The position numbers were made by a program. Shown here piece by piece: positions 56,201 to 59,200 of a stretch of 64,000 nt of DNA. Source of the DNA: a plasmid. Position 1 is the stretch's first letter. Each line of letters opens with the position of its first letter. The stretch is taken from assembly GCF_058153355.1 (NCBI RefSeq), contig NZ_JBLWLY010000002.1. The stretch is one strand, 5' to 3'.

Positions 56201-59200
56201 CTTCACCGGGCTCAGGACCCCGTAGGATCTTCACCGAAAAAAATGCATCACCAGTTGCTTTATTATTTGTTTTAGGTAGACCTGTTACTAATTTATACCT
56301 ACTCTGACCAGGTCTGGATAAGAAAGGCACACCTGCACATTTCTACTTGGAAATGTTTTCTTTTACCATTTTTCTCAAAAATTTCAACATCCAATATTCC
56401 TCGTACAGAACTACTCAAGTCCTGAATAGAAAAAGTTCCAGCTGGTACAGTAGGGTCATATATTACTCGACCTTGTTGAGATACAACAACACGTGCATTA
56501 GTTTCTGCAATACCAGTAATCTGAGGCGCATAACCACGAATATTTGGCGGTAGCATTCGTTCATCGCATTTCTAATGCAATTCCTGTGTAACGCCAAGCA
56601 ACAGCGCATTCTGGCGCATGATCCGGTAAACACGTTTGGCATTGATCGCAGGCATACCATCATGTGCACAAAAACCCACCGAGCTTTTACACGGTGGGTC
56701 CCAGAGAAATGCAGGACATCAACACGCCCTGCATTTTTATTATCAGAAGGTATATTTCACACCCAAAATACCTTGGGTGTCTCTGTAACTGTTATTACCC
56801 AATTGCTGAGATACGTTTCCCCAGATGCTTAGGTTATCTGCAAGACGCCCCCCCACACCAGTTTTGAGTTCAATCACATTACGGTTGCCTATCTGGTGAT
56901 TTGACATGCCATTCATAATTACACCATATTGCTTTGAGCTCCATTTCCAATTCACTTCCAAAAATGGTTCGAACTTACGAAGAGTCTCCTTATCGATACA
57001 ACTCTGACTAATTAAGGATGTACGCAATCCCAATTTTGCTTGAATATTATTGAACCCAGAGGATGTGACCATAGTGCCATTGTGTTCAATATAGTCGTTT
57101 GCTTTTACCCCATGCCTAGTTATCTGGACTTGTGGATTGAGATACAATGCGTTGTCAATATTATTATGAGCAGTCCAGCGTATGGTTGGGTAGATATAGC
57201 CAGCTTCCAAAGCTCCTGTTATTCCTTTGCTGGAATATTTCTCACCAGTTAACCCATCCCCTTTGACTGTATTATTAAACCAACCGTACTGCAACCAAGC
57301 ATCCATATATAGACCTGTTCGTTCTTTTTCATCCTGAAACCAAGAACTGTACAAACCGGCAGTATAACCGCTCACAGTTCCTCGTGAACTATAACTAGTA
57401 TACTTATTATGAGTTTTGCTATCCTGATATCCATAAGCTCCCATAATACCCACATGCAAGCCATCATGATCAGTGAAGTTTGTCTTCAAAATATCTCCAC
57501 CAATCTGATAAACCATCCTGTTAGCTGTGGTTTTTAATTGTCTATCAGCTAAATTATGCTCATTATGTCCACCAACAGTACGAATCCACATGGTGGTTTC
57601 GCTGAGCTGACCTGTAGTAGGAGCAACAATAGTGCTACCGTGTCGGTCATAGAGAGAAGGACTAAACATCGTGTTCATTGCTATCAGGTTAGCAATATAA
57701 CTGCCAGCTTCAGGGCGCCATGTGTGAATACTACCTTCACCCAAATTAAGTGAAGATACAAGCTGTGAACTAGCTCGGCGACTACTCATTTGAGTAGACT
57801 CTTGATTGCTCATCCGTTTTGATTCTTGATTATCCATCTGACTAGTTAGATACCACTTATTGGTATTCAGTCCAGATACAGTGCCCTGTTTCAGGCGATA
57901 GTCATAACTACCAGCAACAATACGGCCTTTCTGAATAAAAGCATTCTTATCAGAAGAATCTGTCGAAATAATTTGAACACCTTCAAGAGTTTTATCTCCA
58001 GAGCCTCCCTCATTTGTCACTGCAACATAGGTAATACCAGACGCATGGCCTGCAATTTCCAGCCGGTCAGTTTTACTGTTGTCATTGCCGAGAACCGCGC
58101 CCAAAGATAATATTCCGCCCTTTCCATGCCAATTACCTTTCTGAACATAGGTCTGACCGACATTTGACGAACTATTATTGAGAATAACATGACCGTTTTT
58201 CTCCAGAGTCATGTTACCTGTGACAATGACGGGGTCAGGCAAAAAAGGGGCATTAATATTATTGATTAGCACAGTCCCACTATTTAATAAAGTGTTAACA
58301 GTTTGGTTCATGCCTGAAAAATTCAAGGTAGCACCTTTATTAACAATAACACCAGCGGTACGTGTCATAGCTTCAACTGTCCCCATTTTTAGAATGCCTG
58401 CATTGATGTTGGTGAAACCAGAGTAGGTATTTTTTTCCGCCAAAATGAGAGTTCCCTCCCCTGATTTTGTTAGGGATTTTCCGTCCCAGCTATTTATATT
58501 ATGATGGCTGAGATTATCTGCCAGAATAGTACTAACAGTAAGTTCAGCGTTTTCTTTCAGATTGAACTCTCCATGACTGTCGCCATCTGTATCATTCCAG
58601 CTCAAACCGTAGATCAATTTATTCTGGTCACTGATATAGCTTTTTGTATAGTCAATAGCACCAGTAGTGAGTAACGGATTGATGATAGATATATTAGAAA
58701 CACTGAAACCTGTTATCCCTTTATCTGCACTTAGCAGTTTATAGTCCTTCTGCGCCCAGTTATTTATAATAGCTTCCACTTTTACATTGTTGCCAAATGA
58801 CATATTTCCAGAAGCTTCCAGACTACTGATTCCAGCTAAATTTAAAGAACTGTTCTCACCAAAAGAAACGTCACCTGAAACAGTGAATTTGTTACCTGAT
58901 AGTGAAACAGTTGTACAATCACCAGCACAAAAATCACCTTCAATAGTTGGTGTGGTCCCAGTGTAATCATTGTTGATAATTTTCAGAATGGATGAATTGT
59001 TAACCTGTACATCACCAGTAATGACAGAACCTTCATGGAGTATTAATGAATTGTTTCCACCAGTGATGTGGATAGCATTACCTGCTACATTTTGTGTTCC
59101 ATCATCTTCTTTACCTGAAATTATATATCCGCTATTAGCAATGGTCATATTGCTACCATTTATAGCATCCCCCCAATGTCCACCATTACCGCTTAAAATA

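What the first reader, a model, noticed from the sequence alone, without database searches (positions are those of the whole stretch)
56299..56556. Fimbrial usher gene fragment next to icsA
Seen: about 85 codons on the minus strand resembling the N-terminal/plug region of FimD/PapC-type ushers, sandwiched between an IS66-family fragment and the icsA 3' end. This suggests a chaperone-usher fimbrial operon once occupied this site and was eroded.
Basis: partly seen in the sequence, partly recalled or inferred. Interest (0 to 1): 0.3.

Follow-up and report, generated by a model that had tools for sequence, protein, structure and literature searches.

The report
Dead fimbrial usher scrap beside icsA
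A roughly 360-base broken piece of a Pap-type fimbrial usher gene (the part encoding the pore's plug) lies among insertion-sequence debris just downstream of icsA on a Shigella/EIEC invasion plasmid; it is a real but non-functional relic that NCBI's annotation pipeline already marks as a pseudogene.

Summary
The 85-codon minus-strand ORF at 56299-56556 matches Pfam Usher (E=1.9e-27) and PapC (E~1e-32, mature residues 252-331).

It is the plug domain, not the N-terminal domain. Homology runs further than reported, from about 56596 to 56238, roughly 119 codons. Two frameshifts break it: an extra T at 56568, seen only in this window, and a +1 at 56337-56340, shared by all five invasion plasmids (pINV) aligned.

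- a 71-bp IS2 scrap (56595-56665) towards icsA;
- an IS91-family scrap (56184-56224);
- the IS66-family terminal repeat ending at 56180.

The block 56162-56800 is about 99% identical in S. flexneri, S. sonnei, S. boydii, S. dysenteriae and EIEC plasmids. About 106-116 of 117 icsA-bearing plasmids in the collection carry the scrap. Some lineages erode it further by IS1 or IS2 insertion.

No chaperone, subunit, adhesin or other usher remnant exists in the window or in the whole of pCP301.

The scrap is not E. coli papC. It is 76% identical in amino acids but only 65% in nucleotides, with GC3 of 17% against about 59%. It therefore came from an AT-rich Pap-like operon.

RefSeq annotation (PGAP) already calls it an usher pseudogene. 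Verdict: ordinary gene relic, low interest.

The parts
56238..56596 (-). Full extent of the usher pseudogene fragment. It covers about 119 codons, equivalent to PapC precursor W266 to about F384 (mature about 239-357): the end of the beta5-6 hairpin/beta6, the plug linkers, the whole plug domain and beta7.
   Evidence: Three-frame translations against four Pap-family ushers. tblastn gave 56571-56314 and 56342-56268. The repaired fragment matches Pfam Usher at E=1.6e-41, profile positions 65-182 of 549. PGAP's pseudogene in the EIEC pINV spans the equivalent of about 56599-56281.
56299..56556 (-). Its ATG is the conserved internal Met of the family (PapC M279 in 'DDRMLPP'). Its stop is created by the downstream frameshift.
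56568..56568 (-). Extra T (frameshift 1). It is present only in this window and turns ...LESDERM... into ...LEMR*.
   Evidence: Alignment with five other pINVs, none of which has this base. Position confirmed.
56337..56340 (-). +1 frameshift (ATGT where a single codon is expected). It is shared by all pINVs examined and ends the 85-aa ORF shortly afterwards.
   Evidence: PGAP notes 'frameshifted'.
56595..56665 (-). 71-bp scrap of IS2 (IS3 family) orfB, lying between the icsA terminator and the usher fragment. The junction with the usher is at about 56594-56596, with a few ambiguous bases.
   Evidence: 96-97% identical to two annotated IS2 copies of pCP301. The stretch around it (query 56590-56690) matches 4241 of 5426 E. 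coli genomes. Weak Pfam HTH_21 hit.
56671..56736 (-). Two stable hairpins immediately after the icsA stop codon. The second is followed by a U tract, making it the likely icsA terminator. They separate icsA transcription from the scrap.
   Evidence: RNA fold: -37.4 kcal/mol, z=-5.7 against shuffles.
56184..56224 (-). Scrap of an IS91-family transposase gene. It carries a 54-bp internal deletion relative to the other IS91-like copies on pINV.
   Evidence: 30-bp match at 93% to pCP301 'IS91 orf' genes CP0015 and CP0175. Sequence comparison with the pSD1_197 copy.
55765..56180 (-). Partial IS66-family element: a terminal inverted repeat ending at 56180 (GGAAGCGTACAGCC...) and a tnpA-like ORF at 55765-56109.
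   Evidence: The repeat resembles the ends of the complete IS66-family copy at about 52607-55075. Pfam HTH_Tnp_1 E=2e-7. Other pINVs keep only 56162-56180 of it before an inverted repeat that I take, from memory, to be IS629/IS3-type, next to annotated IS629 ORFs.

Best explanation
This is a non-functional relic. It is an internal piece of about 360 bp (roughly 14% of the gene) from a Pap-family (pi-clade) outer-membrane usher gene, and it retains only the plug domain and the adjoining barrel strands.

It was cut at both ends by IS-associated events: an IS2 scrap on the icsA side, and an IS91-family scrap followed by an IS66-family end on the other side. It was frameshifted before the known Shigella/EIEC invasion plasmids diverged. 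Since then it has drifted neutrally as passenger DNA downstream of the icsA terminator.

It has no signal peptide, N-terminal domain, complete barrel or C-terminal domains. It has no partner chaperone or subunits. It therefore cannot assemble or export anything.

Shown: identity, extent, lesions, flanks, conservation across pINVs, and the absence of other chaperone-usher remnants.

Inferred: the source gene evolved under selection in an AT-rich genome rather than as E. coli papC, and the scrap does nothing today.
For: Family identity.

Extent and the two frameshifts.

Flanking IS scraps.

Same block, same junctions and the same shared frameshift at about 99% identity in S. flexneri, S. sonnei, S. 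boydii, S. dysenteriae and EIEC O121 plasmids.

Distribution: 117 PLSDB plasmids carry the icsA 3' end. Of these, 106 carry the full block and about 116 give a tblastn match of at least 80%.

Neutral drift: of four substitutions seen among six pINV copies, three are non-synonymous and one is synonymous. There is also a lineage-specific 1-bp insertion.

Further erosion: an IS1 insertion with a 9-bp duplication in one S. flexneri plasmid, and an IS2 insertion plus truncation in pSD1_197.

No sigma-70-like promoter on the minus strand in 56000-56900, and by eye no Shine-Dalgarno-like sequence in the bases before the ATG. Two strong hairpins lie between icsA and the scrap.

No other chaperone-usher remnants in the window or in whole pCP301.

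PGAP annotates it as 'fimbria/pilus outer membrane usher protein; frameshifted; incomplete; missing N-terminus and C-terminus'.

AT-rich origin: 76% amino-acid but 65% nucleotide identity to papC, with third-position identity of 34%. Fragment GC1/2/3 = 0.53/0.45/0.17, against 0.67/0.48/0.59 for papC. There is no in-frame stop in 119 repaired codons, whereas 0 of 20,000 shuffles stayed open.
Against: No expression data were available, so transcription cannot be excluded. The scrap is co-oriented with icsA, and read-through of the icsA terminator is possible.

The substitution count is too small (four) for a formal test of selection.

No closer intact relative or donor was found, so the AT-rich-donor inference rests on composition alone.
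Confidence: 0.93

Rival explanations
1. In-situ operon decay. A complete Pap-like chaperone-usher operon once sat downstream of icsA on the ancestral plasmid, and IS insertions and deletions removed everything but this piece.
For: The scrap sits at the same place with the same junctions in all pINV lineages examined. Its GC3 of 17% groups it with the AT-rich virulence genes of the plasmid (icsA 33%, T3SS genes 26-31%) and not with the IS elements at 58-63%.
Against: No other chaperone-usher remnant exists anywhere in the window or in whole pCP301. Both ends of the scrap abut IS scraps rather than operon DNA. An IS2 scrap separates it from icsA, so the adjacency may be secondary. The data cannot distinguish this from import of the scrap as passenger DNA.
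Confidence: 0.35
2. The 85-aa ORF is a functional small protein: a stand-alone plug domain, for example one that interferes with chromosomal ushers.
For: It is an intact ATG-initiated ORF that covers a complete folding unit, the plug. The isolated Caf1A plug exists as a stable solved domain, 3fcg.
Against: There is no signal peptide, because the ORF starts at an internal family-conserved Met. A cytoplasmic plug could not reach ushers. No promoter-like site was found, and none of the bases before the ATG looks like a Shine-Dalgarno site. The ORF boundaries differ between pINVs, and IS1 or IS2 interrupts it in some. The amino-acid changes are mostly non-synonymous and depart from the family consensus (S to P, Q to K).
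Confidence: 0.02
3. Recent capture of a piece of E. coli papC from a uropathogenic-type pap island.
For: PapC is among the best-scoring intact relatives found, with 80 of 105 residues identical.
Against: Nucleotide identity is only 65%, and third-position identity is 34%, close to random. GC3 is 17% against 59%. blastn against 5,426 E. coli genomes found only EIEC pINV copies at 95% or more; everything else was 80% or less. Decay after capture cannot explain this, because the protein sequence and the open frame are preserved.
Confidence: 0.02

Closest known systems
PapC, the P-pilus usher of uropathogenic E. coli (PDB 2vqi, 3fip, 7lhg; Pfam PF00577)
   Same: Among the closest intact relatives. 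It shares 76% amino-acid identity over 105 aligned residues, covering plug linker 1, the plug domain (mature 264-324), linker 2 and beta7.
   Different: Only about 119 of 836 codons survive, and they are frameshifted. Nucleotide identity is 65% and GC3 is 17% against 59%, so this is a separate Pap-like lineage from an AT-rich background and not a papC allele.
Other E. coli pi-clade ushers: a Pap-like usher on bovine E. coli plasmid A (NZ_CP010123), a chromosomal Pap-like operon followed by an EAL-domain gene (NZ_CP022730; Pix-like by my reading), and the pMD26 usher (NZ_OZ464528)
   Same: 70-77% amino-acid identity over the same region. Their operons have the order subunit-subunit-usher-chaperone-minor subunits.
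   Different: Those operons are intact and have GC3 of 36-62%. pMD26 is the nearest at nucleotide level but reaches only 68-73%.
RefSeq/PGAP pseudogene 'fimbria/pilus outer membrane usher protein' on EIEC and Shigella pINVs (e.g. PWR57_RS26345 in NZ_CP119442.1; WP_077697512.1; partial S. sonnei proteins)
   Same: The same locus at 99% identity, already described as frameshifted and missing both termini.
   Different: The window copy has one extra frameshift (T at 56568) and two private amino-acid changes. It keeps the ancestral Pro at 56311, where the other five aligned pINVs have Ser. The original pCP301 annotation leaves the locus unannotated.

Membership tests
Outer-membrane usher, FimD/PapC family (Pfam PF00577) | Significant match to the usher profile | tested here: met
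   96.8 bits for the ORF and 143.2 bits for the repaired fragment, against a cut-off of 27.1. PapC E~1e-32 to 1e-44.
Outer-membrane usher, FimD/PapC family (Pfam PF00577) | Complete architecture: signal peptide, N-terminal domain, 24-strand barrel with plug, and two C-terminal domains (about 800-850 aa) | tested here: not met
   Only profile positions 65-182 of 549 are present, equivalent to PapC precursor 266-384 of 836. tblastn with four full-length ushers found no other usher segment in the window or in pCP301.
Outer-membrane usher, FimD/PapC family (Pfam PF00577) | Uninterrupted reading frame | tested here: not met
   Two frameshifts in the window and one in the other pINVs. PGAP flags it 'frameshifted; incomplete'.
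Chaperone-usher fimbrial operon | Adjacent PapD-like chaperone and pilin/adhesin genes | tested here: not met
   tblastn of the operon proteins from four Pap-like operons gave no hit better than E=0.005, and that one falls inside ccdB. Another, at E=0.08, falls inside the 494-aa ORF 22984-24468, which lies in the T3SS entry region and is probably icsB.
papC (P-pilus usher gene of E. coli) as an allele | Near-identity at nucleotide level and E. coli-like codon usage | tested here: not met
   65% nucleotide identity, and GC3 of 0.17 against 0.59. No E. coli genome outside the EIEC pINVs exceeds 80%.
Conserved pINV backbone feature | Same sequence and junctions across Shigella/EIEC invasion plasmids | tested here: met
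   99% identity over 56162-56800 in five lineages. 106 of 117 icsA-bearing PLSDB plasmids carry the full block.

The most novel reading that the evidence does not exclude
The scrap may be the last trace of an AT-rich Pap-like fimbrial operon that arrived with icsA and the other low-GC virulence genes from the still-unidentified donor of the invasion-plasmid virulence genes. If so, its phylogeny could serve as an independent marker for that donor. The extreme GC3 (17%) on a well-conserved protein sequence, and its fixed position beside icsA in all pINVs, do not exclude this. However, no close AT-rich relative was found in a pattern-seeded scan of the one-genome-per-species collection (100,044 species) or among 1.84 billion protein representatives.
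Probability: 0.2. Interest if true: 0.35.

Novelty: already known. Interest (0 to 1): 0.1.

Why it matters
It matters little in itself. It is one more gene scrap in the IS-riddled Shigella invasion plasmid, and current RefSeq annotation already flags it.

It has three modest uses:
- It is an ancient, neutrally drifting marker with lineage-specific lesions: the extra T at 56568, the P/S state at 56311, and the IS1 and IS2 insertions. These can help order pINV lineages.
- Its AT-rich codon usage shows that the plasmid's ancestor, or the DNA it absorbed, once included a Pap-like fimbrial gene from a low-GC source.
- It warns against counting the 85-aa ORF, or its 24-95-aa variants in databases, as a usher protein.

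Tried and rejected
- Literature: four full-text searches, plus in-paper term searches of two fimbriae papers (PMC6854044, PMC3559732), found no discussion of this fragment. The pWR501 paper (PMC98286) is not held.
- The search for homologous proteins returned only short fragments, either pINV copies or frameshifted PapC pieces. It gave no closer intact usher.
- The genome-contig scan gave a best identity of 64% (Pantoea sp.). Providencia, Yersinia, Citrobacter and Serratia gave 51-59%. The scan depends on exact 8-residue patterns, so it may miss relatives.
- The exhaustive HMMER search of 1.84 billion representatives gave full-length hits of at most 61%, and 65% for a 397-aa AT-rich-looking partial (P0019). 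The donor remains unidentified.
- A marginal chaperone-like tblastn hit at window 24055-24381 (E=0.08) lies inside the 494-aa ORF 22984-24468 (probably icsB) and was rejected.
- A PapG hit in pCP301 (E=0.005) lies inside ccdB and was rejected.
- The antisense ORF at 56347-56553 (+) and the neighbouring small ORFs have no Pfam match.
- No attempt was made to identify the exact source plasmid. No PLSDB or RefSeq E. coli record is identical across this block.

Full report
**Context.** The window carries icsA (56743-60051, minus strand) and AT-rich ORFs at about 14-44 kb that correspond to the ipa-mxi-spa entry region annotated on pCP301. The block 56162-56800 is 99% identical to invasion plasmids (pINV) of S. 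flexneri, S. sonnei, S. boydii, S. dysenteriae and enteroinvasive E. coli. The window is therefore part of a Shigella/EIEC invasion plasmid. No record in the plasmid or E. coli collections is identical across this block.

**Checking the observation.** The ORF at 56299-56556 (minus strand, 85 aa) exists and is unmistakably a usher.
- Pfam PF00577: E=1.9e-27, 96.8 bits against a cut-off of 27.1.
- Fifteen NCBIfam usher models, best E=5.5e-26.
- Solved PapC structures: E=7.6e-33, with ORF residues 1-80 aligned to mature PapC 252-331.
- The isolated plug-domain chain of Caf1A, 3fcg: E=6e-6.

By the PapC numbering in PMC4356140 (plug 264-324; beta5-6 hairpin 233-240; translocation domain 146-637), the ORF is the plug domain with its linkers. 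It is not the N-terminal domain.

**True extent and lesions.** Translating all three minus-strand frames and comparing them with four Pap-family ushers shows that homology continues both ways in other frames.
- Upstream, [10 protein letters not shown] (from 56599) matches the family's SWRYTGASLE.
- Downstream, VPFLSRPGQSRYKLVTG...GDAFF matches VPYLTRPGQVRYKLVSG...GPVFA.

Two frameshifts separate the three pieces.
- One is an extra T at 56568. It is absent from five other pINVs and so is private to this window's lineage.
- The other is a +1 within 56337-56340 (ATGT in place of one codon). All pINVs examined share it.

Repairing both gives a 119-codon open frame running from 56596 to 56238, equivalent to PapC precursor W266 to about F384. 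Its Pfam score rises to 143.2 bits, E=1.6e-41. The ORF's ATG is simply the conserved internal Met of the family motif DDRMLPP.

**Flanks, in usher orientation (reading down the minus strand from icsA).**
- icsA stop at 56743.
- Two strong hairpins at 56736-56707 and 56702-56671, the second with a U tract (z=-5.7).
- A 71-bp IS2 orfB scrap at 56595-56665, 96-97% identical to two annotated IS2 copies of pCP301. The stretch around it matches 4241 of 5426 E. coli genomes.
- The usher fragment.
- About 10 unassigned bases.
- An IS91-family transposase scrap at 56184-56224. It matches the 'IS91 orf' genes of pCP301 and pSD1_197 and has a 54-bp internal deletion.
- The terminal repeat of a partial IS66-family element ending at 56180.

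In the other pINVs the shared sequence stops at 56162. There an inverted repeat begins that I take, from memory, to be IS629/IS3-type, lying next to annotated IS629 ORFs in pCP301. They keep only 19 bp of the IS66-type end, so the window shows the older state on that side.

**Conservation and decay.** The fragment, its shared frameshift and both junctions are the same in all five lineages aligned. The truncation and inactivation therefore predate the diversification of known pINVs.

Of 117 PLSDB plasmids with the icsA 3' end, 106 carry the whole block. About 116 give a tblastn match of at least 80%.

Variation is what neutrality predicts.
- Three of the four substitutions seen are non-synonymous: S/P at 56454, Q/K at 56373, and P/S at 56311.
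- Two of these take the window away from the family consensus. One takes the other five pINVs away from it.
- One S. flexneri plasmid has IS1 inserted with a 9-bp duplication, CAACACGTG.
- pSD1_197 has IS2 inserted with a 26-bp loss, and the fragment is truncated at about 56413.

**Other chaperone-usher remnants.** I took 37 proteins from a true pap operon and three Pap-like operons. They comprised ushers, chaperones, major and minor subunits, adhesins and regulators, plus a few adjacent ORFs. I ran tblastn against the window and against the complete pCP301 sequence, fetched in five pieces.

Only the usher fragment scored (E~1e-31 to 1e-38). Every other hit was noise that fell inside unrelated genes, namely ccdB and the 494-aa ORF 22984-24468, probably icsB. 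There is thus no independent trace of an operon.

**Origin.** PapC and a Pap-like usher from a bovine E. coli plasmid are the closest intact relatives found, at 76-77% amino-acid identity. Nucleotide identity is only 65-67%, and third-position identity is about 35%.

The fragment's GC1/GC2/GC3 is 0.53/0.45/0.17, against 0.67/0.48/0.59 for the same part of papC. Among window ORFs, the T3SS genes have GC3 of 26-31%, icsA 33% and IS genes 58-63%.

The protein sequence is well kept. The repaired frame has no stop in 119 codons, and 0 of 20,000 shuffles stayed open. The AT-richness therefore arose under purifying selection in an AT-rich genome, not through decay after inactivation. That is an inference.

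blastn against 5,426 E. coli genomes found copies at 95% or more only on eight EIEC pINVs. A pattern-seeded scan of one genome per species gave at most 64% identity. An exhaustive HMMER search of 1.84 billion representatives gave at most 61% for full-length ushers and 65% for a partial. The donor is unidentified.

**Function.** None is expected.
- The piece lacks a signal peptide, the N-terminal domain, most of the barrel and both C-terminal domains.
- It has no chaperone or subunit partners.
- It has no promoter-like site on its strand, and the bases before the ATG show no Shine-Dalgarno-like sequence.
- It lies behind the icsA terminator hairpins.

A stand-alone cytoplasmic plug peptide is very unlikely to act on periplasmic or outer-membrane ushers. 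I put that possibility at about 2%.

**Comparison with what is known.** NCBI's PGAP pipeline already annotates the locus on EIEC and Shigella plasmids as 'fimbria/pilus outer membrane usher protein; frameshifted; incomplete; missing N-terminus and C-terminus'. Partial proteins from it are in the protein databases. The original pCP301 annotation left it blank. I found no paper in the held library that discusses it.

**Verdict.** The feature is already known at annotation level and is of low interest. The only mildly novel angle is its extreme AT-rich codon usage as a clue to the low-GC source of pINV DNA.

Noticed in passing
window 52607-55075: A complete IS66-family element (tnpA/tnpB/tnpC, ORFs 54572-55000, 54228-54575 and 52637-54208, all minus strand). 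It is flanked by an 8-bp direct repeat, GTTTCACC, and is inserted into a group II intron reverse-transcriptase/maturase gene, whose GIIM domain ORF is at 55015-55476.
   Followed up: partly
window 56671-56736 (minus strand): Two very stable hairpins directly after the icsA stop (-37.4 kcal/mol, z=-5.7). The second has a U tract and is the probable icsA terminator. The simple terminator scan missed it, probably because the hairpin does not fit the scan's simple stem-loop rule.
   Followed up: partly
window 56162-56800: The window differs from every pINV in PLSDB and RefSeq E. coli by 4 SNPs and 1 indel here. At 56311 it keeps the Pap-family consensus (RPGQ), where five other pINVs (S. flexneri, S. 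sonnei, S. boydii, S. dysenteriae, EIEC O121) share a derived RSGQ. This suggests the window's plasmid branches outside those five.
   Followed up: partly
L008 3335-4102 (S. flexneri FDAARGOS_74) and L070 881-2300 (S. dysenteriae Sd197 pSD1_197): Lineage-specific further erosion of the same scrap. One plasmid has an IS1 insertion with a 9-bp target duplication. The other has an IS2 insertion with a 26-bp loss and truncation next to the repA region. In the IS1 case PGAP calls a 24-aa 'usher protein' CDS.
   Followed up: yes
window 56184-56224; L009 2500-2600: The IS91-family scrap next to the usher fragment has a 54-bp internal deletion relative to the other IS91-like copies on pINV. A short repeat (GGCG) sits at each end of the missing segment.
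   Followed up: partly
window 55592-55738 (+) and 49866-51305 (+): Further IS66-family transposase pieces. One is a 48-aa C-terminal fragment on the strand opposite to the neighbouring tnpA-like ORF. The other is a second tnpC-like ORF with the same N-terminus as the complete copy. The region between the T3SS genes and icsA is a mosaic of nested IS66-family and group II intron debris.
   Followed up: no
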